Both the position numbers and the translations under genes were made by a program. Shown here piece by piece: positions 24,070-64,000 of a stretch of 64,000 nt of DNA; the stretch's first letter is position 1; each line of letters starts with the position of its first letter. The stretch covers positions 33,932,277-33,996,276 of the forward strand of contig JASCQW010000119.1 in assembly GCA_030264375.1 (NCBI GenBank), read 5' to 3'. This DNA is from Carcharhinus longimanus. Its lineage: Eukaryota. Below the pieces are notes generated by a model. That model saw nothing but the letters and a program-made list of their open reading frames with translations, did no database searches and was not told the origin of the DNA.

Positions 24070-25232
24070 AGAAAAATACTGCAGATGTTGGAAATCTGAA
24101 CTAAAAATAGAAAAGACCAGAGGGGGCAGAGAATCCAGCAGAAGTTCCCAAATGGCATGTACATTAACGGGACTTCCCACTGAGATTGTCCCCACTGGCC
24201 GCCATGACATAATGGCATTCCTGACATGAAAGGCCAGGAACCCCATTGGCAAACATTTGCATGGCATTAGCGGGCATCCCTGCAGTATCATGCCAGATGT
24301 TTACAACAGCTTTTGACAAATGGAGACTTGGCAAAAGCAACCCATCAGGGGCTCCCAGGTAAGTACTGCCCCTGGGGTGGAGCATCATGCCTAGACAGTA
24401 CTGTCACTTCCCCCTGACAATGTCCTGTTCATGGTGGGGGCTTTCCATGATGTGGTGCTTCTTTTATTTATTTATTTTCATTGGGGTGACATTTAAAAAC
24501 AGCACCCGATCTGGCAGGAGCTGGGATTGCTGATGGGTTATGTTCATTCTGCCCTGCCAACATGACATGGTGGGACCCACCTCTTTCATTCCTTTTCCTA
24601 AGTGTTTGAAAATACAGTGGGAAAAGCCAGCAAGACAGCTGGCAGCTGCCATCGCTTTTCTCACCCGAGACAACACTTTGTGTTTCAGATTGGTGGAGTT
24701 GGGAATGTTTACAGAAAGGCTGAAGGGGGAGGGGCAAGGGGTGAGGTAGAGAACAAACAGGAAGGTCCGAGGTGTGGTGGAAGGCAGGGGATCAAGTGAT
24801 AAATTGATGATAGCGATCGAAAAAAATAGGATAGTAGTGGATCAAATATAGAAACAAAGGATATGTCCAGAGGAGGTATGATGGGAAGGCAAAATCACAG
24901 TAACAACTACTATCCAATAAAAATGGGGCAGAAGTAATAATCTGAAATTGTTGAATTGAATGCAGTTTCCAGAAGGCTGTGGAGTGCCTTGCTTAAAAAT
25001 GAGGAACTTTTCCTTGAGCGTATATTGTGAACACATAAAATATGAGCAGGAGTAGACCAGATGGCTGCATGCTTATTTAAAATTACGAGCTTTTGGAGCA
25101 CTGCTCCAAATCCCCTGATGAAGGAGCAGCACTCCGAAAGCTCGTGATTTGAAATAAACCTGTTGGACTTTAATCTGGTGTTATGAGACTTCTTACTGTG
25201 CCCTCCCCAGAGCAATGTTGGCATCTCCACAC
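24070..25232. mobile_element. Penelope-like element fragments (with a MITE nested at ~24120-24660)
   Basis: AAAATACTGCAGATG.TGGAAATCTGAA terminus, GIY-YIG C-terminal remnant on the minus strand at 24900-25010, and terminus CTGATGAAGGAGCAGC.CTCCGAAAGCT...AATAAACCTGTTGGACT. Confidence 0.65.
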
Positions 25233-27830
25233 CTTGAACAGACCCAACAGTAGCTTGTGATATGTCACAACAGTAAAATTCATAGACATACAGGTGGAAT
25301 TTTCTCACTCTGTACACAACAGACAACCCTTTTTCTATTTGCAAATAACCTTTCTCAGCTTCTGAAAGGGTTCTCAGCACATGCAATAGGCATCTCAGAC
25401 TCATCATCCATTCTCTGAGACAAAATTGCCCAACGTCGTATGGGGAGGTGTCATATATCAGTACTAACTCCTTGGAATGATCAAAATGTACCAGTGGGCA
25501 AGATGACTGTAATAGTTGCTTGACCTTAATAAATGCTTTTTTCTGTGGTGGTTTCCAGAATAATGTCTGGTATTTCTTCAGTAACACATGTAAAGGAGCC
25601 AACAGTGTTGACAGATTTGGCAGGAAACGCCTGTAATAATTAACTGTCGCTGGAATGATTTAAGCTCAGAGACTTTTCCCAGGACCAGTGCCTTCTTTAT
25701 TGTACTCATTTTGTCCTCCATAAGATGCAATCCCTATGCATCTACATGGTAGCTGAGGGAAAGCTATTTCATTGGTCTGGAAAGTGCGATTTTCTGTTTT
25801 TAGGTAAAGCCTTGCCTTCTGAAATCTTCTCGGTACTTCTTCCAGATTAATCAAATGTTCTTCAGTTGCAAGCATCCATATATATGATGCATGGCAAGCC
25901 CTCTAATAAACTTTCCATGGTTCTTTGAAATATTGTGCAAGCCGATGAGCAGCCAAAAGGCAAGATTGTATTATTGTTACAGGTTGAGTTTCTCCCAAAA
26001 TAACTCTAAGTCCACAATATTCCTGAAAACAGGAGTAGCTCCTACCAATTTTTTTCTGATTTTCAGAAACACACTGTGCATTACAGAAGCCCTAGCGGGA
26101 TTCCCTCTGGAAATGAGGGGGCAGGGCTATTCCTGTCTGAGAGGTCAGCAACATAGCGCTGAGTGGGCCATTGCGCATGCGCCGATCTGTCAGAGCGGAG
26201 ATCGATACATGTGCAGAGGCCCTGCATTGCAGGCCTCTTGATCGCTGGTGAGTCCTGCAAACCCCCATTGCTGGTTTTGCTGACCACTCCACCCACCAAT
26301 GACTTGGACTGCCCCGAGCCAAGCCCCTAAGTTATCCCCTCCTCTCCCCCTTTTCCTTTTGTGGGGAGCAGTTTTAAACTGTGCTGTAGTGAACCACCGC
26401 TGGCGGTGGGCGGGTGGAGAGGGGGGTTGGGAATGTTTGTGGACCCAGAGACTTCAGTCCTGGGCCTGCTAACGATGTGGAAATGAATATTTCCATATTG
26501 TAATCAGCTCCACGCCAATTTCCGGCACAGAACTAATTGCGCTGGAAATCTTGGACTGGGAGTCATGCGGAGGATGCGGCGCCCAGCGGGAAGCCTGTAA
26601 AACAGCCTCCGCTGTTCTCTGCCAGCCTGCTCTGCTACTAGAGCAGTGCAGTGGGCCGGGAAAATCGTCCCCATAATTTTTATGGGTGTTAGTAGTCACA
26701 TAGCCTCTAGAAGTATCATTCAACTCCGACTGTTGATAGGCTTAGGAATGGGGATCTTATTGAAACTTATAGGATACTGCAAGGCCTGGATAGGGCGGAC
26801 ATGGAGTTGATGTTTCCACTTGTAGGAAAAACTACAACCAGAGGGCGCAACTTAATGGTAAAGGGACGATCCTTTAAAACAGAGATGAGGAGGAATTTCT
26901 TCAGCCAGAGAGTGGTAAATCTGTGGAATTCTTNNNNNNNNNNNNNNNNNNNNNNNNNNNNNNNNNNNNNNNNNNNNNNNNNNNNNNNNNNNNNNNNNNN
27001 NNNNNNNNNNNNNNNNNNNNNNNNNNNNNNNNNNNNNNNNNNNNNNNNNNNNNNNNNNNNNNNNNNNNNNNNNNNNNNNNNNNNNNNNNNNNNNNNNNNN
27101 NNNNNNNNTCTTATGGTCTTAAATCTAATTTTGTGTATGATTGTCCCCCAGGCAGTGTTGCATATAAATTCTCTATCTTTGGGGTAGGGTATTTGTCCAG
27201 CTTTGCAGCCTGGTTTACTAACAATTGATAGTCTCCACAGATGCAGACTGTTTTGCCTGCTTTTATCACAGGCAATATGGATGCTATCCATTCTGCAACT
27301 GGACCCGCTTCTATTCATTTTAGTTTGGTTATGACTTTCTCTAACAAAGTGCGGACACAGGTCTAGCTCTGAAAGATTTTGTGCTGGCTTCTGGGTCTAT
27401 ATGAACTTTTGCCTTCAAGCTTTTAATCTTCCCAAGTTCAGCTTGAAAAATGTCCTGGATTATTTCATACTGGTCTCCTTCATTCTGAAAATTCCCAACA
27501 AGTTGAGTTTTATTTCTTGGATATAATTGTAGCCCATTAGACTTGGCCCTTGCCCAGACATCACAATCAATTGAAGTTGGGCAGATTGTTGCCAATAGCT
27601 CACAGAGATTTCAGTTGTACCCACAATCCTTCCCTCATGTATGTTGCCAGTCTTATTGACTGTTCATTTATTTCAGAGACTGGATCCATTCTCGCAGATG
27701 CCTGTAGGTCTGGTCCCCTACTACAGTAGCAGTGGCTCCCATGTTGACTTCCATTCTTAATGGCGTACCATTGAATAATAGTGGGATCGAAGCAAGCGGG
27801 GCGAGTGAGGTGAATCCCGAGAGCCTTCAT
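25232..27830 (-). mobile_element. Decayed Gypsy (Ty3) pol: protease, RT and RNase H, interrupted by a MITE (~26060-26675) and a CR1 (~26745-27115)
   Basis: APLHVLLKK...W..PQKKAF.KVKQLLQSS..LVHFD.SKELVL..DTSPY (RNase H), EEHLINLEEV..RFQKA (RT), KAGQIPYPK, AELGKIKSLKAKVHIDPEA. Confidence 0.88.
26745..27115 (+). mobile_element. CR1 LINE 3' end
   Basis: FPLVGKTTTRGRNLMVKGRSFKTEMRRNFFSQRVVNLWNS. Confidence 0.9.
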
Positions 27831-30084: not shown

Positions 30085-30590
30085 AAGAACATAAGAACCA
30101 TCTGGCCCCTCAAGCTGCTCCACCATTCAAGAAGATCAGAGCCGATCTTTTTGTTGACTCAGCTCCACTTACCCGCCCGCTCATCATAACCCTTAATTCC
30201 TTTACTGTTCAAAAATTTATTCATCCTTGCTTAAAAACATTCAATGAGGTAGCCTCAACTACTTCACTGGGCAGGGAATTCCACAGATTCACAACTCTTT
30301 GTATGAAGAAGTTCCCCCTCAACTCAGTCTTAAATCTGCTTCCTCTTATTTTGAGGCTATGCCCCCTAGTTTTAGTTTCACCCACCAGTGGAAACAACTT
30401 CCCTACTTCTATCTTATTTATTCCCTTCATAATCTTATATGTTTCTATAAGATCCCCCCTCAATCATCTAAATTTCAATGATAATTGCAGTCTACTTAGT
30501 CTTTCCTCATAAACCAACTCTTTCAACTCCGGAATCAACCTAATAAATCTCCTTTGCCCCCTTCAGTGCCAATATATCCTTTCTCAAGAA
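30085..30590 (-). mobile_element. CR1 LINE 3' end
   Basis: RGDLIETYKIMKGI...RGHSLKIRG..F..ELRGNFF.QRVVNLWNSLP, with a TTCTTATG tail. Confidence 0.92.
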
Positions 30591-31030: not shown

Positions 31031-31261
31031 TATCCTCAGGGCTAGAACCACAGCTTTGTTTAACTGTAAGTTAAAGTTCCAACAATATTGGAATAAGAAA
31101 TAAAACTTTAACAGTTAACAATGATACCAAGCTTGGTGGAATGGCAATGTGGATGTCACCAATCAACTGCAACACAGCAGAGATCAGCGAGCAGAATTAA
31201 CAAGTGGCACATGGAATTTAATATTTGGAGGTGAAGGCAAAGTGATTCAGCTTGACAGAAA

Positions 31262-31715
31262 TATAGAAATATAGAAGGTAGGAGCAGGAGGAGGCCATTC
31301 AGCCCTTTGAGCCTGCTCTGCCATTCATCGCAATCATGACTGATCATCCAACTCAATAGCCTAGTCCAACTCAATTTCACCCCATAACCTTTGATCCCAT
31401 TCACCCCATGTGCTATATCCAGCCACCTCTTGAATACATTCAATGTTTTGGTATCAGTTACTTCCTGTGGTAATGAATTCCACAGGCTCACCACTCTTTG
31501 GGTGAAGAAATGTCTCCTTATCTCCGAATCCTCTGACTGTGACCCCTGGTTCTGGACTCACCCACCATTGGGAATATCCTACGTGCATCTACCCTGTCTA
31601 GTCCTGTTAGAATTTTATAAGTCTCTATGAGATCTTCCCCTTATTCACCTGAAATTCAGTGAAAACAATCCTAACCTAGTCAATGTTTCCTCATACATTA
31701 GTCCTGTCATCCCGC
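31262..31715 (-). mobile_element. CR1 LINE 3' end
   Basis: VVSLWNSLPQEV..KTLNVFKRWLD, with the GGCCTCCTCCTGCTCCT tail. Confidence 0.9.
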
Positions 31716-31719
31716 CAGG

Positions 31720-32600
31720 ACATAGAGTGGCAATATAGACGCAATGGCACAGTTCTAAATGGTGTGCAGGAACAGAGGGATCTGGAGGATACATATGATA
31801 GATCTTTAATGGTGGCAGGACATACCTAGAGAATGGTCAGCAAGGCAGATGGGATCTTAGGCTTCATAAATAGAGGCATTGAGTACAAAAGCAGAGAGGC
31901 AATGCTGAAACTTCAACAAGTGCTGTTTAGCCACAATCAGAGTGTCGCCTACTCTAGGTAGATGGTGAGCTTCCACAAGAGCTTTAGAAACAGTTTACCC
32001 AAATGATTCCAGGGATGGAGAATTTTAGTTACAAAGTTAGGCTGGAGAAGTTTGTATTGATCTTTGAGCAAAGGGGATTGAGGGGGATTTGATGAAGAGG
32101 TGCAAGATTGTGATGAGTAGGCAAGGAAAAATGGTTCCCCTTCTTTGATAGTACAAGGACTGTGGGGATTTAGATAAGATTTTGGAAAAGAGATGCAAGG
32201 GGCAATGTGAGGAGGACTTAATCGGTAAATGACCTGGAACTCGCAGTCCATGACTGCGGTGAAAGCTGAGATGATGTGAAGGTGGTTACCTTTGGCCAGG
32301 ACCCATTCCTTGAAGTAAACTGGTCTCACAGGCTGTGCCAAAGCATAACGAGCCCAGTGCCATCTCCACCCAGTCCGGAAACCATGTACAAGGAGCTGCA
32401 ATTGGACATTGACATCAATTCCATAATTTCAAAAGGAAATTGGGTGGGCATTTGAAGGAAATAAATTTACTGGAGCCACAGGCATAGAGAGCAAAGGTGG
32501 GGGAGAGAAGGGAGGGTTTGGATTTATTGGATTGCCCCCTGGAGACCTGGCGTGGGCTCGATGGGTAAATGGCCTCTTTCTGTGCTCTATATGATTCTAT
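31720..32600 (+). mobile_element. Older CR1 LINE (further pieces at ~30595-30750 and ~31090-31260), hosting the UNG fragment
   Basis: QEQRDL, LGFINRGIEYKSREAML, WNS..., TTTCAAAAGGAAATTGG, and tail AATGGCCTCTTTCTGTGCT..ATGATTCTAT. Confidence 0.85.
32273..32413 (+). pseudogene. UNG: Fragment of uracil-DNA glycosylase (family-1 UDG/UNG) coding sequence inserted inside a CR1 3' end
   Basis: Translates as DVKVVTFGQDPFLEVNWSHRLCQSITSPVPSPPSPETMYKELQLDID, colinear without gaps with vertebrate UNG [47 protein letters not shown]. There is an in-frame TGA just upstream and CR1 sequence on both sides. Confidence 0.85.
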
Positions 32601-33824
32601 ACATTAACAGGAAGACTGAATTTCTTCCTTGCCACTCCAGGACCAATAAGAAACAACATTCCCAATGTGACCCAGCTAAGGCCCTCTTGCAGCTTGACAG
32701 TCACGGTTGGTAATGTTGGCAATGCCTTCAATGAGAAAGCGTCAATGCTACTAATGATGGAGGCCATTGGACCCTTTTTTATCTTCCATACACGAGTCCT
32801 CCATGATTAATGGTGCTTTTCAATAATTTCTTCACGAATGCTTATAAACTATAGAGACAGAATAACGCAGGTCGAGCATTTGGTATGACTAAGAGTTACG
32901 AATGTGATTAAAGCAGATGCTGAAACAAGGACAGAAAATGCTGGAAAATCTCAGAGGTCTGACAGNNNNNNNNNNNNNNNNNNNNNNNNNNNNNNNNNNN
33001 NNNNNNNNNNNNNNNNNNNNNNNNNNNNNNNNNNNNNNNNNNNNNNNNNNNNNNNNNNNNNNNNNGCCATGATCTTACTGAATGGCGGGGCAGGCTCGAA
33101 GGGCTAGTTGGCCTACTCCTGCTCCTATTTCTTATGTTCTTATGTTCTTATGAGAGGACTCATCAATTAATGCTTTTGCAGGAGTCAGGGAATAATTTGC
33201 AACATAACACTAGACTGCCTTTGAGGTTTCTGAAGAAATCAATTTACTCCTAGTTTCTGTCATCCCATTATCTTTACTGTCAGAAAATGGAACTTATGAA
33301 GATTTCTAACCTGTGTCCAGCCTCCAACCTGAAATTTTTTTCTCAATTTTCCATATTACCTACGTTATCTGGTTCATTTAGTATGAAATATTCTACCATA
33401 CCCAGTGGAACAGACTTTCACCATAAGGCAATGTCTTCAGGGTAGGTTCCTTCCCTCGCTTCAGCAGCAGAAGAATCAAGAGTATCTTGTAGCTCCATTC
33501 TGATTTTAGGGTCCACTTCTTCTTGTTCTTGAACTTCTTGTTCAACTTTTTCAAGGATGTGGTATCTCCGAAAATCGGCAAGTTGATATCATTAGATAAT
33601 TTAAAGGTACTTTTGGTGAATGAGGATGAATGTGCAGTTTGTGCACTGCTCAATACTTGAAACATTTTACAGTAAAATGGCAATGTCTTTTTGCCTACCT
33701 TTGTCCTCTTGCCTTGCCTTCAATTTTCTGTGCTTTTCACTGCCAGATTGATAGTGTCGCTTCATGTTGACTGATCTTTCTTGATTTTAATGAATGCATT
33801 TTCTGAATGATCAGACTTTTTATG

Positions 33825-41116: not shown

Positions 41117-41243
41117 GATTTATATCAAGATCCCTGGGAATAATGTCTGTGAAACTGCATTTTGCCACTCCTGCTGATTCTAGTGGAGTCAACCGCAGCC
41201 GTTCATTTGCTGGCTTTGGTTCAATGCAAAGCAGAAGAACTCA
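41117..41243 (+). CDS. RIPOR3: RIPOR3 exon with conserved ATG (41143): [33 protein letters not shown]
   Basis: Acceptor ttttccttacctatgtatag| and donor CA|gtgagt; RSxSFAGF motif. Confidence 0.92.
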
Positions 41244-44200
41244 GTGAGTATTAAAGGAGCTTATGCAAGTGTGAATACATTATGCAATAACTGACCAATT
41301 TTCTAATGAATAGAAAATTAAGAAGAAAAATCAAATCAATGCTTTTCTTTTCTCAAGCAAAGTAGTGGATTCTTCTTCACCAAAAGTGCAAATTGGTTTC
41401 TGTACTGTGCTGTGCTGTCAAACATGCTGTGCTTACACTATACAGGAAGCACACACCTGTTGGAATGCTTTGATTCATGCCATTGTCCCTTCCTCCTGAA
41501 GCTAGTCCTCACATTTAGTCAGCACTGCACAAGTAATGCAACTGCTGAGTGAGATTGCATAACAAAACAAGGGACTGAGCTGTTAACTTGCATCCATAGC
41601 TGTAAAGTTCACTCCTTTTTAATCAAGCCTTGTGTTATGGAGTTTTCAAAAATTATTTGCATCAATATGTTAGATGTTTGTTAGTCAGACTTAAAAGAGT
41701 ACAATATATGAAAAATGACTAGGGCTAAGCTATAACACAGATGGTTTAAACACGGACTTTTGATTATGTCAAAACCCATGAGAGCGAAGTTAAAGTGCCA
41801 TACTGAAGCTATCAAAACCCCTTGAGCACAATGCAGGAGTCCACATTTGATTTTATGTGATTTATGTATTTACATTTATGGATTGATTGTAAAATTTAAG
41901 AATAAGTCCAAATATTCATGCATTTCGGAGAAAGCTGGATGAAAAAGAAAGAAATATGGCAATAGGGAGGTAAAGTAAATAGAATGGAAGAAGGTTTATG
42001 TGGAGCGTAAACATTGGTATGACCCTGTTTCTGTGTTGTAAATTCTATGTATAATATTTTAACAAGCTGTTTCTTCATCTTGCAAATACATGGCAGTAGT
42101 TAGAGATACATTTAGGCCAGGGTTCTGAAAATCCACAGGTGTCCTCCCAGTTTTCTGCAGTAATGAGAGAGTCATGGAAACTCCAGAGAAAAAATGTGAC
42201 TGGCCAAAAATAGCCTCATTCAGAGGACTGAAACCTTAGTCCACGCTTTTACCATCTTGAACCTGAAGGATTCCCGGCCAGCTTCTCTGTTGCAATCCCT
42301 TGATTTCAAATACAGCATGGCCTTATCTGAGTGATCTCCAGCATTCCTTCATACATGCATCTATCCTTCATTCTTCAAAGCCTTCTCTTTGTCCCTAACC
42401 TCTGCTTCATGACTATAATAACCCTTTCAAATTTTCTGCGTGGTCAGCTGTCCCTCCCTGTTTATACAAACCTCATTAAAATCCTTCTGTTATACAGTAC
42501 CTTTGGTTCCCCAGCCACAATCTTCCCATTTTTTTTCTTTTCCCTCTGCTCTTTATTTACTGAATTAAGCCCCTAATGATAATTGCTTTAAGAATCCCAT
42601 TACTCATGAAGATCTTATGGAAATGCAGGTTGCTGCATTTAACCCAATTTTATCCCCATTGTTTCTTGCTGTGATGCGATTTTACAAGTTCTGGCAGCTC
42701 AATGCTTATCAAAAAGTGATGAGTGATCAAATCCGTCAAGGAATCAAGAGATATGTGTCATAATGATGGGAAAAAAACCCTGGAATTATATATTGGACTT
42801 TAACAAAGATCTAAGTTGTACATTTAAAAAAATTGATACAGACATTGAAAGTTGCTGAGAACGTACAAATAGGAATGACTGCAGGAGGTTTCTCGAAGGA
42901 GCAACGGAACCTCTCCCTGTGTTTCTAGACAAGGTTCTAGTAAAATATCCAAAGACAAATTACCATATTCAGCACGGACAGAGAGACACAATGGCCCTCT
43001 CATCTCCAAGATTCTGGGTATAATGACGTAGACAGGCTAGTACATTTCAGTCCTTTTGGAATGCGCATTGTGCACATGTACGTGCATGTTGGTGTGTATC
43101 ACACTGAAGGGAATGCAATAACTGAGGCATGGCCCCTGCAAAGATAGCCAGCCTTCGGAGGAATATCAAAACCTATCTCCCCTTTGGTGAAAGTCAATAA
43201 GTTAGCAGAAGGATCACAGCTGGAAAAGAACTGAAACCTCTACCAAATATCCAAACTACACAACACCTGAACCAAAGAATCAGCTGTTCATCAGCAGAAG
43301 CCAACTATACTGAAAATAATCTTAACGGCCACAATACATCATCATCCACCTCCGTAACTCGGAGACTGTTGCGTATAACTTTTTTAATATTTACTTACTT
43401 TTGAACTCAATCTCTGGTCTGAATGAACATAGATGCATTACCATTTCTCCTGACCTTTTATTAATAAATAAACNNNNNNNNNNNNNNNNNNNNNNCCTAG
43501 TTGAATTGTCTCCTTTTTAAACAGAACTATTAGATCTGGAAAAGGTATCCAAGGGAAAGGAAACCTTGTTACATTAAATCTTTGTTACCACCAGGTGATG
43601 GTGGGTTGAATAAAGACACAGAGCCAATCATCTCTCCTCATTTGGGTTTGTGACACTTAGGGGGTATCTCAGCCAGATGGTGACAAATCAAGGGGTCTCG
43701 TCAAGATCAATAGATAACTTTTGGGAAACTGGTTGTAACAGTGGAATCATGCCATGGTTGTATTGAATGGTAGAACAGACTCGATAGGTCAGATGGCCTA
43801 CTCATGCTCCTATTTCTTATGTTCTTTTGTTCTTAAATATGAGCCTGAATTGTGAATATTGGCAGAGGATCCACTTATGTAGAGTATCATGGCTGAACCT
43901 AAAATAATACTTGTTGACAGCCATGTTTTTACCACTAGATAATGATTAGGACCACAGACCTTGGCTGCTTTTTTCTCTTCAAAACCCAATAATACTGAAT
44001 TGAATTGCAACATCCAAACTGTCACACAGTATGAGGTTAGTTATTCGACCCAGAATAGTAACCAAGCCAGGCATTTTGTAGCATACATGTTTGAATTTTG
44101 TACTGGCTATTGCCTCTAAAGTATTCAGTTCTGGGTTTTAAAAAATAAAATTTTATTTTGTAGTTTATTGATTTCAGGAAGACTTACTTGTGCCAAAATT

Positions 44201-47200
44201 AAATGACACAACTATATTTGGGTGTGCCCCCGGACCTTCCCGGCCTCTCCTTAGTCCCTCATTAATGATATGGCTCTGGCCCTGGCTTTTCCTCCAGACC
44301 TCATCTCTCTCCTTTGGTATTGGTGGCACTGGTTTCCCCTATTGATGTCTCCTTCCACCATCAAGCTGGCCTTTCCTGACTGTTTATTCCCTCAATGATA
44401 AGGTGGCCCCAATCGGGGCCTAGTCTGTCTCTGTCTAGCTCTGCCTTTTAAATGAAAAGGCAAAAAAGCTTTTATTTTTGGGCTTTAATGGTCATTTTAA
44501 TAATAATTTTTTTAATTATCAATTTATTTCTTTGATTTTTTAACCTTAGCAAGTTGCTTGTTTCCTTCATACCATAGTTTTTTTTAAAATCTCTTGTTTA
44601 ATGTTGTGCCAACCAGATCTCAGGCAGCTGTTGCCGGGTTTCTTACTGAAGAGGAATGAGAGGCACACGGGAAGTCTCATTGCTTTTTGGAGGTTGGCAA
44701 AAGGGGTTACTTTTGCTCCATTAGAAATGGGAAGTGTTTGAAATGCTCAGCATACCTAGTGGCACATGTGCAGAGAGAAACATCAGAACTATTGGAATTC
44801 GTAGATCTGAAACACTGAGGGGGAAAGGGGTGGGGGAATTTTGTAGCCACGTATAAATGGCAATGTGGGTGCAAAATCCCATGAGAGTTGGGAAGCGAGA
44901 TTCTCATTGGCTAAAATAATTTCCTGATTTTCCCTGCCCTGCTTTGGTGATACAGGCATGAACCTCATTTCCTTATATTTTAATAAATTTCAAATTTATT
45001 AAGTTATTAAATTTAGTCCCCGAAGAGGGGAACATGCCTGGGGAGTGGGGAGAGGAGAGTCCCGAATACTTGTGCGGTGGTAAGTTGGGGGAGGAGAGTC
45101 CCTGAGACTTGTGTACTGGAAAGAGAAGGGGAAGATTCATGATACTTGTGTGGTGGGGAGTTGGCGGGGGGAAGGAGGAGAACCCCCAATACCTCCATAG
45201 TGGGAAAAGTGGGGGAGAGAGCTGACCACTTGTGTAGTGGGGGAGGAAGGTGAGCCCCTGATAGCTCTGTGGTGGGTGGGGAAGGGGTTAGAATCGCCAA
45301 TACTTGTGGGGGGTGGGGGGGGTGCAGATGTGGGAAGGATTAATGCCCCTGAATCGAGGATATTGACTATGAGGAGAGGTTGAACAAACAAGGATTGTTT
45401 TCACTGGAAAGACGAAGGCTGAAGGGAGATCTGATAGAGGTCTACAAAATTATGAGAGGCATAGACAGGATGAATAGTTATAGGCTTTTTCCTAGCATGG
45501 AAGTGTCAATTAGAAGGTGGTACAAGTTCAAGGGGGAAAGTTTAAGAGAGATGTGCGGGGAAGCTTTTCACGCAGAGAGTGGTGGGTGCCTGGAATGTGC
45601 TGCCAAAGGAGGTGGTGAAAACAGGCACATTACCAACATTTAACAGGCATCTGGATGAGGGAGGGAATAGAGGGATATGGACCGAATAAGGGCTGAAGGT
45701 GTTTTCTTTTAATTTAGTTCAGGCATCATAGTCCGCACAGGCTTGGAGGGCCAAAAGATCTGTTGCTGTGCTGTACCTTTCTTTGTTCTTTGAGTGGTTG
45801 CCCCTCTGCTTATGGTGAGGGGAGGCCTCTGTGTCTGTGATGGGGAGGAGTTAATTTTCAGCGCTGATCAGAGCACCTTTTAAAGATAGTGTCCCAATCT
45901 GTGTTAGCCAGCCTTGCCGGCTCCATCAAACCCCACCCCATCAGAGTGCCAGTGTAAACCATGCCCCCAGATTTTCTGTGTACTCAGGGCCAGAAAATCT
46001 GGTCTGATAACTCAGCTGTGCATCTGGAGAGATGCATGCTGGTTTTCAGTCAAAGCCTGACACTAACAAATGTTGGTAATATTCTGTCCATTGACTCTGT
46101 TTCTCTTTCCACGGATGTTGCCTGGTCTGCTGAATCATTCTAGCATTTCCTGTTTATATTTCAGGTTCCCTACATCTACACTACTTTGCCCACCTTCTAT
46201 TAACTCCATGCTGGGCATTTGCAAGTGTGGTTAGTTTCAATTTAAAATGAGAACATAATTCTTGTCCCATTGTTTTGTTAACAAAGCCCACTTGTCTGGG
46301 TAGAAATAGCATATTATTGTAGGCGTGTTGAATGGTGCTAATTTAAAAGTTTGTCATTTTTAAACTTGGAACCAGCAGTGATACACCAATGCAAAATGTC
46401 ACTGTTAGCTCAAGATATTCTCATTTGTATATAGAATTGTTAAATGTGATGTTTGTGAGATTCAAATTGGATGTTGCTGACCGAGTATTGCACAGGACCT
46501 GGTTTGAAGAAACAAAGCTAGTTGCATAATATGAATGACCAAGTTTTGTTAAATTGTCTGACAAAGCCAGAGTTGTAAAGTGTATGGTCTTGAAATCTCA
46601 GCTGTAAGTAGATTTTAGAAATAGAGGCATTTAATAAATAAGCTGATAAATTTTGCTAAAGCTAAATAAAACAGTTTGCCCCCACTGTGACTATGGTTCA
46701 CAATTCTGGGCATAGGAGGATGTGAGGCATGAAGGGGGCTGGGGGAACTAAGGGGCTTGGAAACAAGAGAAATATCAGGGCTCATGATTTCTCTCCCTGG
46801 TCCTGATGATTCTATGATACCACTATAAGTATTTATATTTCACTAGTGGAGATGTGAGGGAACAACATCCAGTTCAATGATAAAATAGGAGGTTTTTTTC
46901 AACAACACCTCCACAATGCCATACATTCAACATATCTTTAATAAATTTAAATAAATGCAGGGAGATATACTCTCTATGTGGGTGAACAATTAACTTGGAG
47001 GCTGCTATTGGGACACTGGGGTGATAAATGTAACAGCCAAAGGATAATCTAGCTTACAAAGCTGTTTTGATTCTGAAAAACAAGATTGTTTACTGTTACT
47101 TATTTTCTAAAAAGATATTTTACAAGAAAACATGGAAATTTTTTGAACAGAATCACATCAACAGATCAGAAAATTCATGAGGCACTTTCTTTCGCAATTT

Positions 47201-50200
47201 ACTAAAGAAACCTTAGTGTTGCAGAATTTTTGGACATGATGCAAAGACTACAATCCTTAAATAAATGATTCATGCAAATAATATGCCTTGTAACTCTTTA
47301 AATTCTAAATTTATTTCCCAATGTTCGAAATATGCATATGCTTCCAATTAAATAGCAAATTCACAAATCACATGCTGTAAAATGTCAACTGTGTAGAATG
47401 ATGAAATTTAGAGGAAGTTAGCACACCAAAAGCAAACTACACAGTCTCCATTCTTGGTAAATTAGATTATGTTTGGGGATTCCACCCTACGTCCACGTTC
47501 AGTGAAAGAAAAAAGACTTGCACTCACAGAGTGCTTTTCATGAAAACCAGACATTTTGAGGTGCTTTAGAACCGGTTTTGAACATTTTTGATATGTATTC
47601 CTTATTGTAATTTGGAAGCCAATCTGCATACAACAGGCTTCCACAAAAAACAATGTGATAATGACCAACTGATCTACTTTACGATATTAATTGAGCGATA
47701 AATATTGGCCAAGACACTAGGGAAAGCTCCCCAGATCGTCAAAATAGTGTCATGCGATTTCTTTATGTTTTCCCAGGAAAACATACAAGACTTTGGATCT
47801 GGAAAGCATTGCCTGAAAATGTAGAGGCTGGTTAAACTAAGGCATTCAAGAGAACATTAGATAATTATTTGAATAGAAACAAAGTGTATGAATATGGGAA
47901 AAAGCCCTCTTTTTAGGCAGTATTCTGACTTAGAGACGTTCAGTCATAATCCCACGGATTGTAGCTTCGCATCATTGGCACCTCAGCCAAGCATGTACAC
48001 TAAATGTTCGAACCTGTGGTTCCTCTCGTACTGAGCAGGATTATTATTGCAACAACACTTTGTAATCATCAGTAGGGTAAAACTAACCTGTCTCACGATG
48101 GTCAAAATGGCACTAAGTCATAACGTTCACTTGGAGAGCCGGTGAGATTGCGATTTCTGATTTTTGCCATGCCTTGCCATTGAAGTACTCAGGTCCAGGC
48201 CCATAATGGGTATGAATCTGATTTTAATACATTTAAACATAATTATAGACCCAATACTCACCAAATCTTCCCCTCTCACTAAATCACGTCAGTAATGTTT
48301 ACAATAGGTTCACCCAGACATGAAACTTTTGAGGGGATCCCCTGGGGCACAAAGGTCACTATAGAGCCCCGAGGAAAGGGACATGGCCTGTCAGGGCCAA
48401 CCTGTGCTGGGAGCAGGCCTTGGTGGGGGGGGGCCTCACTTGTGATGGTGNNNNNNNNNNNNNNNNNNNNNNNNNNNNNNNNNNNNNNNNNNNNNNNNNN
48501 NNNNNNNNNNNNNNNNNNNNNNNNNNNNNNNNNNNNNNNNNNNNNNNNNNNNNNNNNNNNNNNNNNNNNNNNNNNNNNNNNNNNNNNNNNNNNNNNNNNN
48601 NNNNNNNNNNNNNNNNGCTACAGACACCTCCATGGTGGAGGAAGGGCAGAGATAAAAAAACATTTCCAGTAGGGTGCCCTTTAAAAATGGCGTCCCAACC
48701 TCAGTGGAGCCGGCTCCCAGCTTTAAGAGTCTCCGCTTCGCCAGAGTTGGAGTGCAACCCTCAGCCACTCTTTTTTTTTGCAGTTGACCTCACAAAAGCT
48801 GGAGAGAAAACTGGCCAGTGAAGCTACAGAGTCCCATGCCAGTTTTCTCACCAGAACTGACACTCTGCCAAATTGATGTTAGATTCCACCCAATGGTATC
48901 TATCCAATACTAACTCAGCTAATTCAGGTTAGACATGCTGAATACACATGTCTGAAGGGTATGCTAAATATAACTTTTTTCAGCATAGAACATAGTTATA
49001 TTGTAAACATACATTGTTAACATAGCCTTCTTTGCACATAAGGCAGTTATATATGAAAATTAACAGACATTCAAATATGTTTTGTTGATTTAAAATTAAT
49101 TAACAATGTTACAATTTTATTTTGCAGAGTTTCTCCTGTCAGTAGAAGTTCTTCAAGGTCAAGATTCCTATCAGTAAAATTAACAAAGAGGCATATCACT
49201 GCACAAAAAAGCTCCAGTAGCCTGGAGCCACAGCCTAACCGAGTGGAGAAAATATGCAAATCATTGCGGAAAGGACTAAAGTAAGAATGAATATAAATTG
49301 TACAATGACATAAGGGAACCATTTAAAGTATGACATATTCTATTCAGCAATGGTCTATGCTATAGTATTATTTGGTAAAATTAGCCAGAGTGCTAACTAA
49401 TCCTTATAATGATCACGAAGAAAATAAGTTCATGTCTGTGTTATATGCAGACTATATTCTCTGTCATTAAGCCTAGGATGGTATTGAGAGGACGAAGGTT
49501 CTTGTTCCATGGCTTTACCCACCAGAAATGAGTGAGATCAAATGAGCAGAGGATGGTGGTTTAGATAAGAAAGGGGAAGCAGCTGGAAACAATGCTTTGG
49601 GGTGAGCAAAATGAAGAAGGAAGACTGAGAAAATTAGTGCTACCTCAAACTGGAAGAGTGGAAGATGAATAGCAGATTTACTGAATTGGAGGCTGAGGGT
49701 GGGACTGGGAGTACTGCTTAAATTCAGAAGGGAGTGGGAGAGTATTAGTATAAAATGAGGTACAAGAGAAAGAGTAAGAAATTGAAAATGGGATGAGACT
49801 TGTGAGCTAAGTCCTGGAAGGACAATGAATGGGTGGAGATTGGATATGTGCAAGTTACTGTTGAGGTAACATGGTGGTCCGATTGAGGGTCTGTTAACAT
49901 ATAAATGTCACACTGATTTTCCTTTACTAAGCTATATAAAAATGGTAATTGTAAATTCTAAAGCTGCATAAAATTTTACTAAGTGCCCAACTGGGTGAGA
50001 ATATGGAAGATTTTCACATCCTTTTTTTGGGGGAACTTAGTTGAATGAATTTCTGGCATTCAGTGCACCACAGAGGTCATCAGGGGATTTATGCTGTGGG
50101 GGTGAAGGGGTGGGGCCTAACTTCGCACAAGAGGCCGGCATCAGAATGCTGAGGGGGCAGAATGCTTGTGTCGATCTCCTAGTATACTAGGAGATCGGTT

Positions 50201-53200: not shown

Positions 53201-56200
53201 TCTCTGTATTAATTGTGCAAAAATGGAGAGATAGTGCTCTCTGGATGCAGCTCCCTCTTTAGACAATCAGCACTAATCAATGAATGTTTCTGTCTCAGAA
53301 TCACCTTGCTAAGCAGCTGTCACATTGGCAAGAGGGCATTAATGTGTGCAATAGTGTTGCATCCTCTTGAAGAATGCAATTGCTTTTGACTTGTTGGAGC
53401 CATGGTTGAAACAACTGCACTGTGTGTAGTTGCCTAATGATGTCTCCTATGTTCACAGAGTGAAATCCTCTTCTACAAATGGATTTCACAGGCTACTGCC
53501 AAGCAGTTCTCAAGGCCACATGTGTGCAGTCAGTTGCGCCCTACACTTGTGGAAAGTGTGAAATTGCTGCAAATCCAACAGTTCTAGCAGCATGGCTTGC
53601 CCCATCCATGTAGAACTGCATATAATGATGAGCTGTATTGAAGAAGGTATCTGTCATCTTCCTTATATGTGTGCATGTCATCAATTGTGAGATTTTGCAA
53701 AGATTACCAATGGAATCCTAGAAGGATCTACAGTGGATCTAAAGTACAGTGTGGTGGTGACCTTCAGAGTGACCTGCATTGGATACATCATTGTAGTATC
53801 AGTCTCGCACAAAGTTGTGGCAAATATGGACTAGCATATCCTGAGACAAGCAAAAATGCCTGTAGCACTGTCTTTCATTTGCCTCCATGTATAAGCTGTG
53901 TCTTCTGTAAATCCTTGGGCACGTCAAACATTTTTGTGGATATGGTCCCTCCTCATTGACATCCAGATCTTCCTGAGGTTTCATTGGCTCTTGTTCCTCA
54001 AAACAACACTCATCCTTGAGCTGTGCTAATTGGCAGTGGGCCCTTCTTCTGCTTGATCTAATTAAATCCTTCAAGGAAGAAGTGTTGTGTGCAACCTGCA
54101 TCATCCATCCACTTTGTATCTGTGAATGGATATAATTGAAGAATGAATGGTTGTTCCCACAGAATGCAATTTCCACTCTACTTTGGAGATGGAGAAGGAG
54201 ACTTTCCCTTCGTCTCCTAAGGCTATTTTCAGAAGGCGTTTGACAAGGTACCTCACAAGAGGTTATTGCAGAAGGTCAGGGGACATGGAGTTGGGGGTAG
54301 GNNNNNNNNNNNNNNNNNNNNNNNNNNNNNNNNNNNNNNNNNNNNNNNNNNNNNNNNNNNNNNNNNNNNNNNNNNNNNNNNNNNNNNNNNNNNNNNNNNN
54401 NCTTATTGAATGGTGGGGCAGGCTCGAAGGGCTAGATGGCCTACTCCTGCTCCTATTTCTTATGTTCTTATGTCCTCCATCCCCTCCAATAACACTCAGC
54501 ACCCATTCACTTGACATCGCCACAGTTCCACTCTCCTACCCTACTGGCTGTCACTGTCCCCTTTAACTGCCACCATCCCTTCTTACCATTGGTACCATCA
54601 GTATGTCCCCAAGGAATCCTCCATTGAGTCCCCTGACCTGTCCCTCTAAACTCCTTTCCCCTCTGAATGAAGATGATCGAGAAGCTCAGAGATCAAATCA
54701 CCAATTTGAAGAGACTGGGAGCCCCTGAAAATGACATGGGACAGTACCAGTTTGACAAGCCCACCCTGAAATAACTGATTGGGAATGAAGTTTGATACAA
54801 TACTGACTTGAGCTCCATTTCCTGTTCTGAACTGTTGCTGTATTTGGAAGTAAAAATATTTATTGTTGACTGTGGTGATGTCAAATGGAGGGATGCTGAC
54901 TGTTGTTGGAGGGGATACAGAAGGTGACTAAGGAAAAGTCATGGAATGGAAATTGCATTCATCCCTTGTATATAGAGGAAGACCCTTCCACGGGAACAAC
55001 CATCATTCTTCAATTGTATCCATTCACAGATACAAGGAGTGGAGCATGCAGGCTGTAAACAACACCTCTTCCTTGAAGGCTTTGATTAGATCAAGCAGAA
55101 GAAGGGCCCCTCATTTCCTGATGGCCATCCACACCCCCACAAGCCTAACCCTGGCCCACACTTTAGCATAACACTTCTCACCCTTCAACTCCATTCTAGT
55201 TCATATATTGTACCACTCCAGCTGAATCTCTTTCTCAACCACCCTTACCCTCCCCCTCCTTTCACTTCTTCATTCCTTTGTTCCCCGTTTATTTTCCCCC
55301 TCCCCAGCACATGCCATGATGTCTCCCAGTATCTCCTGCAATGTTTACGATCCGAGGCCTGTAAGAAGTGACAACTTAAAGGTTCAGACCCTAGGAGAAG
55401 TTCCTGCTTAACGATCCTGAACCTGGGAGAAGTTGCTGCTTGAAGTTCTGGACCCTGACAGAAATTGCTGCTTGAATATCCAGACCCCGGGAGAAGTTGC
55501 TGCAATGAGATTTGGACCCTGTGAGAAGTGGCTATGTTGACAATATCCACCTCTTGGATGTTGCTGTGCATGGATGATCCATGTAGTTGATATTCCATCT
55601 ACCCATTGCTACATTTCGTGTCCCAGGGTTTGATCACTTGAGGCTTCCATGTTTTCCTAATTTTCTCAAACTTCCCCAGGCCTTCCTAAAATAAATGCTG
55701 ATATTTACATACCATGTCAGTCCAGACATGTTCTGGACTGGCATGATTATGCGACACGGTTGTTGGGGGCTGGGGTGGAGCAGGGTGGAGGGGTGAGAGG
55801 AAGAGGGAAGGGGTGGATGTTTGATTCCTATCAAGCTTTCATCTGCATCCCATTAGCAGGATGCAAATTGGTTTCACGCTAGCCTCTGGCAGGAATTGCA
55901 ATCCCAATGGTAAGTGGAAATGGAAGATCCCATTGTCATTTTATACTGACGGGGAACCAAATTTTTTGTAGCTCCTGACAAATTGAACCCCATCTGCCCT
56001 TAAACCCACTATGGGGGGAGGGAGTCTGGAAAATTCCACCTTTGTTTCTGGAGCAGAAATCACAATTTTCTAATTTAGAAGTGAGAGTGCCAAATCATAG
56101 CTGGCACTCCTCCCCAGATCTGATGTTTGTCAATCACTGGAAGTTCAACTCCAAAGGTGTGACTTAAGCCTTTTTTATATACAGCTTTAACTAGGTTTGG

Positions 56201-62200: not shown

Positions 62201-63696
62201 CAACATCTCCTGGCCCAACAAAAATTCTACTGCACCCAAAAATATTTTGGGCCCTTTCTTGAGCATCAGCCAATTGCTCATTGCCTGCAATTTGCAAAAA
62301 GAACATCCTTTTCATTCATAATGGCAGTCATGGTAAATCTCTGCTTGAGAATGACCTTTTACAAAAGAGTTTTCATATTGTTAAAGTCAAATCTATCATT
62401 GTAAGGAACCAAATGCTGCAACATTGACTTCTTGCCTCTAGAAGCCGAGGGCAGTATTTAATGAAGGCAATAGNNNNNNNNNNNNCCATATGGAGAGCCA
62501 GTGAGAGTCCCACTTTGCTTCTTTTAGGGAAAGCCTGCCAAATTAAGTGTCAATCAGGCAATTAGTGGAACATTAGTGGGCTATCCAATGATCAAGGACC
62601 CTGAGGGTGGAAATCTTCCTGTAAAAAACTACTAATGAATCAAAATCCACAGTTCTATTGAATGTCAGTGCCACTTCGGAGGTAGCGACTACTGCTGATA
62701 CGACATCTGCCTGACGGTTTGTATTGTCGCTGGATGACACGCTAGAGGTGAGCAATGATGTGATAGGGGTCAAGGGGAGGATCAAGGCAGAGAGATGGCT
62801 CTCAGCATGCAACCCCACTCCCCCCCCACTTTCCTGATGCTCAAGCACTTTGTGCCTTTGAATGAAGGACAACACCACCCCCCACCCTTTCGATCTGGAA
62901 GCCCACAAACAAAAGCAATCCTGCAATGGTTTGCTTGTCATACTTTTCAAATGGTGATCTCTATCCATCTACCAGCTGCTGAGTTACTACCAGTGACAAG
63001 AGGAGGAGCCCTAAAGTGTGCATTAATCATCCACTTAAAGGCCTCAGTGGTGCCTGGGTGAGAAGGCTGTCCACAGGCCTTCATGCTACAAACTTAATTG
63101 GGGTGGAGATGAGAAGACAGCAAGGTCCCCAACCTCCGCCTGATCAAATGGCCCCAGCCGCCAAACATACCACATGGGGGGGTCATTCAATTCCTTTCCA
63201 TGTATCGACTAAAGTCCTAAATTTTCCTGAGCATTAGTTCATTTACCACTTGCTTGAAAATTGCTAATGGATCTTACAAATCACATGGGACCCTGACTTA
63301 TTTATGTGACAGCCTCCTGCTCATAAATGGTGGATGAGTTGCTTTCCAATTTAGAAGCCCACCTGGAAATTACATCAAGGGAGCCCAGTTTCAGTGGACT
63401 GGTGGCCAGGCTGTCTCCCTGACCTATAATGTTCAACTCCATGGAGTTTGTTTTATGAACACTTTTGCAAATAATAGATAGAAAAAGACAAAAAGCAGCT
63501 AGAAAGCAGTTTAAATTCTTAGTGGGGATTTTTGAGGGCAGAACTGTAACATAAAGATTGGGAGACTATTTGTATCAGTATACAATCAGCATTAGTTACT
63601 TATTTTNNNNNNNNNNCACTCGTCAATATTATCCTTTTTCAGCAAATTAAGACCACTGAGAGATACATCAGGAAACTGGAGTTTCACATCAGCAGG
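41143..63696 (+). CDS. RIPOR3: RIPOR family member (FAM65), most likely RIPOR3/FAM65C; 5'-part, join(41143..41243,49128..49280,56411..56489,61905..61928,63643..63696), continues past the window
   Basis: Spliced translation: [137 protein letters not shown]. All introns are GT-AG and phases match (2,2,0,0). It carries the FAM65 N-terminal motifs RSxSFAGF, RNSRL, YDLDKQ and LEFHIS. The MSVxLxF start and RNSRLAF are RIPOR3-like. Confidence 0.9.
42756..43707 (+). mobile_element. LTR (TGTCA...TGACA, 42756-43655) followed by a degenerate tRNA-Pro-type primer binding site
   Basis: Inverted termini, AATAAA at ~43463, and AGGGGTCTCGTCAAGAT (43691-43707) resembling TGGGGGCTCGTCCGGGAT. Confidence 0.5.
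45030..45330. repeat. G-rich degenerate minisatellite (~35-44 bp units)
   Basis: Repeated GGGGAG..GAGAG.CCC..ATACTTGTG.GGTGG. Confidence 0.7.
45355..45792 (+). mobile_element. CR1 LINE 3' end
   Basis: [26 protein letters not shown]...RVVGAWN. Confidence 0.9.
47495..47775 (-). mobile_element. SacSINE1-like DeuSINE fragment
   Basis: Reverse complement of the tail and Deu domain (AAATATTGGCCAAGACAC, AAAATAGTG.CATG.GAT). Confidence 0.65.
47795..48145 (+). mobile_element. CR1 3' fragment split by the 28S rRNA insert
   Basis: TGGAAAGCATTGCCTGAAA..GTAGAGGC..GCATTCAAGAG..ATTAGAT..TATGGGAAAAAGC | insert | AATGGCACTAAGTCAT...GGAGAGCCGGTG. Confidence 0.75.
47911..48105 (-). rRNA. Diverged 28S rRNA 3'-region fragment (pseudogene) inserted in a CR1 3' end
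   Basis: The + strand reads ATTCTGACTTAGAG.CGTTCAGTCATAATCCCAC...GGTTCCTCTCGTACTGAGCAGGATT...ATCATCAGTAGGGTAAAACTAACCTGTCTCACGA, the reverse complement of a conserved eukaryotic LSU rRNA core, with substitutions and a short insertion. Confidence 0.92.
49128..49280 (+). CDS. RIPOR3: RIPOR3 exon (153 nt): VSPVSRSS...[18 protein letters not shown]
   Basis: Acceptor ttttattttgcag|, donor AA|gtaaga, phase 2-2. The PQP..VE.I...L.KGL motif is shared by FAM65 proteins. Confidence 0.92.
54218..54472 (+). mobile_element. CR1 fragment (spanning a gap) nested in the Harbinger element
   Basis: [14 protein letters not shown] start and GGCTCGAAGGGCTAGATGGCCTACTCCTGCTCCTATTTCTTATG tail. Confidence 0.85.
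55345..55535. repeat. Degenerate ~31-bp tandem repeat (5-6 units)
   Basis: Consensus is approximately TCC.GACCCTGGGAGAAGTTGCTGCTTGAA. Confidence 0.8.
56411..56489 (+). CDS. RIPOR3: RIPOR3 exon (79 nt): [26 protein letters not shown]
   Basis: Acceptor cttccttttgttgcag|, donor CTG|gtatgt, phase 2-0; KRNSRL motif. Confidence 0.93.
56728..58790 (+). mobile_element. Decayed Gypsy element: 5' LTR (56728-57063), PBS, gag, protease, RT start
   Basis: TGTAAA...AATAAA...TTTACA followed by TGGTGCCAGAAG (PBS-like); gag knuckle [14 protein letters not shown]; [13 protein letters not shown] (protease); [13 protein letters not shown] and [16 protein letters not shown] (RT). Confidence 0.88.
59098..59380 (+). 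mobile_element. HE1-type SINE
   Basis: GGTGGCACAGT...CTCCGGTTTCCTCCCACACTCCAAAGATGTG...GATGGGCCAAATG.CCTCCTTC.GCACTGTA. Confidence 0.85.
61905..61928 (+). CDS. RIPOR3: RIPOR3 24-nt micro-exon: AFLYDLDK
   Basis: Acceptor ttccttatgttccag|, donor AAG|gtaagt; it fills the gap between RNSRL and QIK exactly. Confidence 0.92.
63643..63696 (+). CDS. RIPOR3: RIPOR3 exon (54 nt): [18 protein letters not shown]
   Basis: Acceptor cctttttcag|, donor AGG|gtaaga; highly conserved FAM65 segment. Confidence 0.93.
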
Positions 63697-64000
63697 GTAA
63701 GAATTTGCAGCTCACAAATAACAAAATCATTGTTTGTTTGTTTTTTGATTAAAAGGGTACAATTCAAGTGGCTTCAGATGGCTCATAAAAGCAGTGTCTT
63801 GGATAACCCAGCTGGCTTTTTCCTAACTGCTGCTTCACATGAGTTTTTCAGTGAAATATAATGTATTAAGGGCAATAGGTTTAACTTCATAAGTTATAAA
63901 GTCACTTGAGTTCATTGAATTAAGTGCAGATTTTTGAAATGTGGGAAAGAAATAAAACTTTTGTTGTACAAGCATTTGGAAAGCGGTACAAATGCATTTG

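What the first reader, a model, noticed from the sequence alone, without database searches (positions are those of the whole stretch)
32273..32413. Uracil-DNA glycosylase (UNG) coding fragment embedded inside a CR1 LINE tail
Seen: about 140 bp interrupts an otherwise continuous CR1 3' end (..GGTGAAAGCTGAGATGAT | insert | ..ATTTCAAAAGGAAATTGG). It reads stop-free as DVKVVTFGQDPFLEVNWSHRLCQSITSPVPSPPSPETMYKELQLDID, and the ORF track misses it. Known: this matches the family-1 UDG water-activating loop (GQDPYH) and proline-rich loop (PPPPS). As I recall, the human UNG gene has an intron at [11 protein letters not shown], so the insert would span a splice junction. Inference: it is a piece of spliced UNG mRNA captured by CR1 reverse-transcriptase template switching or by RNA-templated break repair. 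There is no poly(A) or clear TSD, and GAT microhomology sits at the 5' junction. A herpesvirus-like UNG donor is an alternative. The catalytic-loop changes (YH to FL) suggest it is dead here.
Basis: partly seen in the sequence, partly recalled or inferred. Interest (0 to 1): 0.75.

Follow-up and report, generated by a model that had tools for sequence, protein, structure and literature searches.

The report
Spliced UNG scrap inside CR1 fossil
A 140-base piece of the DNA-repair gene UNG, running across an intron position and decaying like junk, sits inside an old copy of a likely CR1 jumping gene in at least four related species; it was likely copied from the host's spliced message when the element's copying enzyme briefly jumped templates, a known kind of accident that no longer does anything.

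Summary
Window 32273-32412 (+) is a family-1 UNG fragment (E 3e-11 to human UNG; herpesvirus UNGs 3e-3 to 0.2) splitting a LINE 3' end. One contig bridges both junctions in 4 of 4 runs laid (four organisms, up to 6.6% apart), and almost nothing else lies on the insert: real, old, no large family seen. It runs through the PPPP-S/LEN point, where 36 of 120 short database proteins break into intron-like sequence, so it came from spliced RNA; the shark intron itself is inferred. It is dead: 14 of 36 invariant columns changed, an orthologue has a stop codon, another lost the catalytic Asp. New details: the 5' end falls on the exon 2/3 border, and 6 bases of the CR1 target are repeated at the 3' junction. 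Capture by CR1 template switching (about 0.5) and RNA-templated patching or retro-insertion into an existing CR1 (about 0.38) cannot be separated. A tidy new member of a known kind; modest interest.

The parts
31725..32275 (+). 5' arm of a decayed, 5'-truncated LINE (CR1-type by recall) : broken C-terminal part of the reverse-transcriptase ORF
   Evidence: Broken frames; paralogous contigs pile up from 31725-31743 on (tables 2, 8); CR1 label recalled, Pfam gave no family for two pieces
32273..32275 (+). GAT shared by the CR1 target and the last codon (Asp) of the upstream ung exon: 3-base microhomology
   Evidence: Family loose-end consensus ends its left part in GAT (table 7); Asp precedes VKVV in 111 of 118 vertebrate UNGs
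32276..32373 (+). Whole ung internal exon (VKVV...PPPP plus AG of the split Ser codon), 98 bases, decayed; catalytic-loop Y-H read F-L, uracil-pocket F reads Q
   Evidence: exon borders from read-through proteins
32374..32412 (+). First 39 bases of the next ung exon, joined without an intron
   Evidence: sturgeon model P0046 repeats a unit that starts at LENMY
32413..32422 (+). Junction filler holding a 6-base repeat (ATCAAT) of the CR1 target; either a degenerate target-site duplication or a templated filler
   Evidence: Window sequence compared by eye with the loose-end consensus table 7
32423..32603 (+). 3' arm of the same LINE: last codons of the ORF, 3' UTR, one octamer 1 mismatch from the CR1 tail motif at 32594
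   Evidence: hundreds of paralogous contigs on 32423-32468 and 32560-32602; octamer; motif from PMC8665684

Best explanation
This is a dead 140-base piece of UNG coding sequence that spans an intron position and sits in sense orientation inside one old LINE copy shared by at least four species; it was likely copied from the host's spliced ung mRNA when the (likely CR1) reverse transcriptase jumped from its own RNA to that mRNA and back during the integration that made this copy. Steps: (1) shown: insert, junctions, presence in four organisms, neutral-style decay; (2) shown in other animals, inferred for the host: an intron at PPPP-S/LEN, hence a spliced template; (3) inferred: the enzyme, copying its RNA from the 3' tail, left it about 180 bases in, copied ung from inside one exon back to the start of the previous exon, and returned by pairing at GAT within a few bases of where it left, repeating about six target bases; (4) inferred: the product lost the last codons of the element's ORF (the insert shifts the frame), made no visible offspring and has drifted since. 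It has no present function that the data support.
For: UNG identity. Spliced: 36 of 120 short proteins have R right after PPPP and then non-UNG sequence, as a phase-2 intron read through would give; 15 of those 36 also have Q right before VKVV, as an acceptor CAG would give; all 118 full-length vertebrate UNGs and the insert have S there and continue; named cases are salmon, platyfish and damselfish, and a sturgeon model repeats a unit starting at LENMY. Real and old: bridging contigs in X1 (possibly the source sample), X6, X9, X17 with 0.2, 1.5, 3.9, 6.6% other letters. Dead: 14 of 36 invariant versus 4 of 11 variable columns changed (Fisher p=1); 6 of 7 listed orthologue substitutions in X6 and X9 change a residue or make a stop, neutral expectation 0.73. 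For switching at integration: same orientation as the element; insert age (0.2-0.3 substitutions per site) is similar to that of the host copy (9 of 28 bases differ from the family loose-end consensus next to the 5' junction, by eye); microhomology at the 5' junction. Double switching with microsimilarity is the model shown for LTR elements (PMC5131818, passages).
Against: Landing inside a CR1 is weak evidence in a genome rich in CR1 (PMC5381603, passage; several similar remnants in this window). Orientation is only a 2-fold argument. The arms rejoin with 0-2 bases lost, whereas LTR-captured retrocopies sit in discontinuous elements (PMC5131818 abstract); a clean rejoin with a repeat of target bases fits a later insertion at a break or staggered cut equally well. 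The host-copy age rests on 28 bases against a mixed-subfamily consensus (agreement 0.56-0.65). CR1 enzymes are described as recognising their own RNA (PMC5470649, passage). The host's own ung gene and mRNA were not seen, so the intron and the true length of the microhomologies are not shown in this species. Among 164 proteins, five non-shark proteins score 147-148 and the best sharks 146, so the donor lineage is not resolved by score.
Confidence: 0.5

Rival explanations
1. Later insertion into an existing CR1 copy: a cDNA of spliced ung mRNA patched a double-strand break (class 2 templated sequence insertion), or another LINE's enzyme primed internally on the mRNA at a staggered cut (tailless retropseudogene). 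The CR1 was a bystander.
For: No poly(A), short microhomology, filler bases and 0-2 bases lost match class 2 insertions; size 137-147 bases lies in the 73-414 range; spliced cDNAs are among known templates (PMC5110952, parts 1-2 of 4 read). The repeated six target bases can be read as a short target-site duplication, as in tailless retropseudogenes (PMC5322556, passages). Cartilaginous fishes hold many retrocopies (14,081 counted; bioRxiv 10.64898/2026.06.26.734816, passages).
Against: Needs the insertion to have come soon after the CR1 landed, since the two ages look alike (rough), and the orientation to match by chance (1 in 2).
Confidence: 0.38
2. The CR1-UNG chimera was itself mobilised, and this is one copy of a small non-autonomous subfamily.
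For: The 3' tail needed for recognition is retained downstream of the insert. One extra low-depth contig (2.8) lies on 32371 onward in X17. At this age sister copies would be about 35-45% apart from this one (inference) and could fall under the 80% threshold.
Against: In the bin 32302-32344 the summed depth equals that of the one bridging contig in 4 of 4 runs (12.2, 8.71, 10.4, 4.7), while equally old arms draw hundreds of contigs on their best-kept patches. No second junction in the window. Contigs show presence, not absence, so a handful of old sisters is not excluded.
Confidence: 0.05
3. The donor was a virus (herpesvirus-like, intronless) UNG rather than host mRNA.
For: Viral genes lack introns, so reading through the intron position does not by itself exclude them. 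Fish herpesvirus UNGs were not compared directly.
Against: Herpesvirus UNGs in PDB score E 3e-3 to 0.2 against 3e-11 for human. Seven of the ten top UNG representatives looked up carry a name and all seven are cellular animal proteins. 22 base changes suffice to reach two shark UNGs, most of them single-base. No relative among viral contigs with the insert as query (close relatives only, weak test).
Confidence: 0.03
4. The fragment is kept by selection, as an exon or antisense/regulatory piece of the neighbouring RIPOR/FAM65-like gene.
For: No stop or frameshift in 47 codons in this species; same strand as RIPOR-like exons 9-31 kb downstream.
Against: Stop codon in X6, catalytic Asp lost in X9, invariant columns not spared; X9 differs at 5 listed sites of 137 in the insert (3.6%) against 3.9% over the whole contig; no acceptor at the exon start and the first GT after the insert is at 32444.
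Confidence: 0.02

Closest known systems
LTR-mediated partial retrocopies by double template switch (Tan et al. 2016, PMC5131818; passages read)
   Same: Internal mRNA piece, intron lost, flanked on both sides by one retroelement, short shared sequence at the junction, a few extra bases, no poly(A).
   Different: The flanking element here is a LINE, not an LTR element; its arms rejoin almost without loss; no sign of further spread.
Class 2 templated sequence insertions (Onozawa and Aplan 2016, PMC5110952; parts 1-2 of 4 read)
   Same: Size, spliced cDNA template, microhomology, filler bases, no tail.
   Different: Fixed and very old rather than polymorphic; a repeat of target bases at the 3' junction; age close to that of the host element.
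U6/L1 and related LINE template-switch chimeras (PMC4476161; passages read)
   Same: A LINE enzyme leaving its own RNA for a cellular RNA, in the same orientation.
   Different: Those are single switches (cellular RNA 5', LINE 3'), mostly snRNAs with L1; here LINE sequence lies on both sides and the cargo is an mRNA interior.
Tailless retropseudogenes (PMC5322556; passages read)
   Same: 3'-truncated, no oligo(A), possibly a short target-site duplication.
   Different: Described for therian L1; the duplication here is degenerate and not certain.
Family-1 uracil-DNA glycosylase (UNG)
   Same: Sequence of the water-activating and proline-rich loops.
   Different: 47 of about 220 catalytic-domain residues, key residues changed, no start or splice context: a fossil, not an enzyme.

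Membership tests
UNG (family-1 UDG) homologue | Significant similarity to family-1 UDG | tested here: met
   (Pfam alone gave no hit on the short piece)
UNG (family-1 UDG) enzyme | Intact GQDPYH loop, uracil-pocket Phe, full domain | tested here: not met
   Y, H, G, F and ten more invariant residues changed; 47 codons only; stop in X6
Processed (retro) pseudogene fragment | Loss of an intron present in the parent gene | tested here: met
   Intron position shown in other animals; host gene not seen, so met by inference from conservation
Processed (retro) pseudogene fragment | Decay without coding constraint | tested here: met
Classical L1-type processed pseudogene | Poly(A) tail and mRNA 3' end | tested here: not met
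   Insert ends inside a coding exon with no A tract
Classical L1-type processed pseudogene | Target-site duplication | tested here: inconclusive
   Six target bases recur at the 3' junction; two alignments fit
Template-switch chimera | Same orientation as the element, element on both sides | tested here: met
Template-switch chimera | Microhomology at both junctions beyond chance | tested here: inconclusive
   3 bases at the 5' junction, about 2 at the 3'; donor mRNA bases not available
Template-switch chimera | Insert and element arrived together (no empty orthologous copy; equal age) | tested here: inconclusive
   All 4 runs laid carry it; ages roughly alike; no deeper outgroup seen
CR1 LINE (host element) | High-copy repeat with broken ORF end and 3' UTR | tested here: met
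CR1 LINE (host element) | 3' octamer microsatellite | tested here: inconclusive
   One unit, 1 mismatch, at 32594; motif from an avian paper
CR1 LINE (host element) | 3' hairpin | tested here: not met
   32530-32610 folds no better than shuffles, z +1.05; expected in a copy this decayed
CR1 LINE (host element) | Placement of the RT in the CR1 clade / match to a curated repeat library | not testable with these tools
   No repeat library; Pfam 0 hits; Atlas hits unnamed and weak. The label rests on recall of CR1 ORF2 C-termini
Mobilised chimeric subfamily | Several genomic copies of the junction | tested here: not met
   One contig per run at 80% likeness, one extra short low-depth piece in X17; blind to few, very old sisters

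The most novel reading that the evidence does not exclude
CR1 reverse transcriptase, thought too strict about its own RNA to make retrogenes, captures interior pieces of host mRNA by jumping out and back mid-synthesis; this locus is one fossil of a hidden class of sense-oriented, spliced gene fragments inside CR1 copies that repeat-masking pipelines discard, giving CR1-rich genomes their own route to shuffle exon pieces.
Probability: 0.4. Interest if true: 0.5.

Novelty: new member of a known kind. Interest (0 to 1): 0.3.

Why it matters
The locus itself does nothing. Its value is as a lead: CR1 is described as poor at copying cellular RNAs (PMC5470649 passage citing Suh 2015, which I did not read), yet retrocopy counts in non-mammals track CR1/Tx1 content (bioRxiv 10.64898/2026.06.26.734816, passage). 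A spliced mRNA piece inside a CR1, in sense, of similar age, is what out-and-back switching would leave. Surveys can miss such cases: one protein-fossil pipeline drops host-gene matches that overlap annotated repeats (PMC9004415, passage). A genome-wide count with an orientation test would make the question directly testable. It is also a clean presence/absence marker shared by at least four species.

Tried and rejected
No whole genome is held for this window, so no genome-wide copy count and no host ung locus. Word-index protein search with the insert: 18 candidates, none significant (too few exact words). Pfam on the insert: 0. A weak tblastn hit to the UNG C-terminus at 42229-42122 (E 0.01) was not supported by the profile search: chance. 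In-window paralogues of the arms were too weak to define the empty site. No RNA holder listed. No contig of the host ung exon VKVV...PPPP was laid at 80% in any of 4 runs (divergence or the human-like filter may explain it). One extra X17 contig (depth 2.8, under the tool's error line of 5) starts at about 32371, on the CAG before the predicted splice point, and carries the working Leu and Asn codons: it may be the genomic next exon of ung, an allele or an error; its loose ends were among 1145 rows not shown, so it is a hint only. The 19 runs of 23 that I did not lay are not used. Hagfish protein P0210 (R then LENF) is ambiguous and not counted as a named intron case; P0255 in the 36 looks like a frameshifted non-animal sequence. 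Splicing of CR1 onto the ung exon as the origin of the 5' junction was rejected: the family consensus has no GT after GAT (table 7). Two paper searches for the UNG exon structure found nothing usable. Searches for a precedent listed no paper on a UNG piece in CR1 or on an mRNA interior flanked on both sides by one CR1; the library lacks most subscription papers, and supplements were not read. Four look-ups in earlier scan findings returned nothing. Hairpin fold not significant. Atlas search uninformative. Viral contig scan negative.

Full report
Observation. Against PDB chains 39 sequences reach E<=1, 38 of them uracil-DNA glycosylases; human UNG residues 54-100 match at E 3.1e-11, bacterial ones at 1.5e-7 to 2e-4, herpesvirus ones (entries recognised by recall) at 3e-3 to 0.2. 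Pfam misses the short piece. An exhaustive search of 1.84 billion representatives gave 43 hits; three are repeat-like, and of ten UNG hits looked up seven carry names, all cellular animal UNGs, including white shark. A profile of vertebrate UNGs finds only this place in the window.

Real, old, and apparently single. No genome is held, so I used public runs. 23 runs hold part of 31700-32960; I laid 4 of them, from four organisms and four studies, at 80% likeness. In each, one contig bridges both junctions: X1 (1 other letter in 597; may be the source sample), X6 (9), X9 (43 in 1101), X17 (39 in 587), i.e. 0.2 to 6.6%. Over 32302-32344 the summed depth is just that contig's in 4 of 4 runs, whereas the arms draw hundreds of paralogous contigs. 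160-221 contigs per run match the right arm from 32426 and continue upstream like the left arm, which defines the empty site. A large chimeric family would have shown on the insert's well-kept ends; a few very old sisters would not, and contigs show presence, not absence.

Spliced origin. Two paper searches did not give the UNG exon map, so I read it from database proteins that run into introns. Of 120 short proteins, 36 have Arg directly after PPPP and then mostly non-UNG sequence, which is what a phase-2 intron (AG|GT) gives; 15 of the 36 also have Gln directly before VKVV with unrelated sequence upstream, which is what an acceptor CAG gives; 83 have Ser. Named cases are salmon, platyfish and damselfish; some unnamed ones resume at SLxNMY after a short in-frame intron. 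A sturgeon gene model repeats a unit that begins at LENMY. All 118 full-length vertebrate UNGs have Ser and continue, as does the insert (AG|T at 32373/32374). So the insert holds one whole 98-base exon (32276-32373) joined to 39 bases of the next.

Dead. 29 of 47 residues match the nearest shark UNGs. Changes do not spare conserved sites: 14 of 36 invariant against 4 of 11 variable columns (p=1), including the loop Tyr and His and the pocket Phe (roles recalled). Neutral simulation puts the divergence at 0.2-0.3 substitutions per site and the chance of no stop at 0.35-0.46. Of 7 listed substitutions in X6 and X9 orthologues, 6 alter the protein, among them a stop (32389, X6) and loss of the catalytic Asp (32300, X9); the table hid 128 rows, so the list is incomplete, above all for X17. 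Since the window and X17 differ by 6.6% over two lineages, the insert is several times older than their split (inference).

Junctions. At the 5' end GAT (32273-32275) fits both the element's consensus and the Asp codon that precedes VKVV in 111 of 118 UNGs; the first UNG-only base is the first base of the exon. The X6 orthologue has C at 32272, as in the family consensus. At the 3' end UNG-like sequence stops at about 32412, then 8-10 bases contain ATCAAT, a repeat of the target, before the element resumes at 32421-32423 with 0-2 bases lost (compared by eye). This reads as a degenerate short duplication or a templated filler. The insert is out of frame with the element's ORF on the 5' side. 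That the 5' end falls on an exon border is unexplained; a rough chance is a few per cent.

Host element and setting. The flanks show a broken ORF end, a 3' UTR and one near-match of the CR1 tail octamer (motif from PMC8665684, passages). The hairpin is not detectable, and no library here could place the element, so 'CR1' is recalled. Next to the 5' junction 9 of 28 bases differ from the family loose-end consensus, roughly the insert's own divergence. Exons of a RIPOR/FAM65-like gene lie downstream on the same strand (Pfam PL48, E about 2e-5, below the curated cut-off, at 49.1-49.3 and 63.6-63.7 kb; a motif-only exon at 41.1-41.2 kb), so the locus is upstream of, or in an early intron of, that gene. 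Of 133 stop-free pieces scanned only a retroelement RNase H and one PL48 piece hit Pfam.

Mechanism. That this is a dead fragment of spliced host ung RNA I put at about 0.93. How it got there is open. Out-and-back template switching by the element's enzyme during integration (0.5) explains sense orientation, similar ages and the microhomology, and mirrors the model shown for LTR elements (PMC5131818, passages). Later insertion into an existing copy, as an RNA-templated break patch (PMC5110952, parts 1-2 of 4) or an internally primed tailless retrocopy (PMC5322556, passages), explains the clean rejoin and the repeated target bases, and needs only that a random insertion hit a CR1 in a CR1-rich genome (PMC5381603, passage) (0.38). 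A mobilised subfamily (0.05), a viral donor (0.03) and a selected function (0.02) are disfavoured.

Comparison and novelty. It works like a partial retrocopy; it is a member of processed-pseudogene fragments, not of classical poly(A)-tailed retrocopies and not a working UNG. LINE chimeras in the paper I read are single switches with snRNAs and L1 (PMC4476161, passages). Six searches listed no report of an mRNA interior flanked on both sides by one CR1, within a library that lacks most subscription journals; supplements were not read. Retrocopies as such are common in cartilaginous fishes (bioRxiv 10.64898/2026.06.26.734816, passages). Verdict: new member of a known kind, interest 0.3; if CR1 switching were shown as a class, 0.5.

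Noticed in passing
window 41137-41250, 49128-49285, 63643-63700 (+): Exons of a RIPOR/FAM65-like gene (Pfam PL48 at two of the three, E about 2e-5, below cut-off; the first by recalled motif only).
   Followed up: partly
window 32276: The first UNG-only base is exactly the first base of an exon; unexplained, may be chance aided by the GAT microhomology.
   Followed up: partly
window 32371 onward, run X17: A second, low-depth contig starts on the CAG before the predicted splice point and has the working Leu and Asn codons; possibly the genomic ung exon, an allele or an error.
   Followed up: no
window 32306-32355: Changes in the insert cluster between the GQDP loop and the proline-rich loop (one codon needs three base changes) while both ends are well kept; clustering not tested.
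   Followed up: no
window 32375-32377: One CpG decayed on opposite strands in two orthologues (C>T in X9, G>A in X6), a sign of methylated, unconstrained DNA.
   Followed up: partly
window 24913-25659 (-): Decayed LTR-retrotransposon RNase H piece (Pfam RT_RNaseH_2, E 1.5e-13).
   Followed up: no
window 31156-31720 (-), 30087-30512, 26711-27187, 45589-45784, 46489-46712: Further LINE 3'-end remnants of similar type, one in opposite orientation directly upstream of the host copy (type recalled).
   Followed up: no
window 53799-54275 (-): 158-codon stop-free stretch that looks, by recall, like a DNA-transposon accessory gene remnant; no Pfam hit.
   Followed up: no
window, 16 N runs (e.g. 32966-33065): Gaps sit beside copies of a very high-copy short repeat (e.g. 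32904-32965, 33066-33151), typical of a short-read assembly.
   Followed up: no
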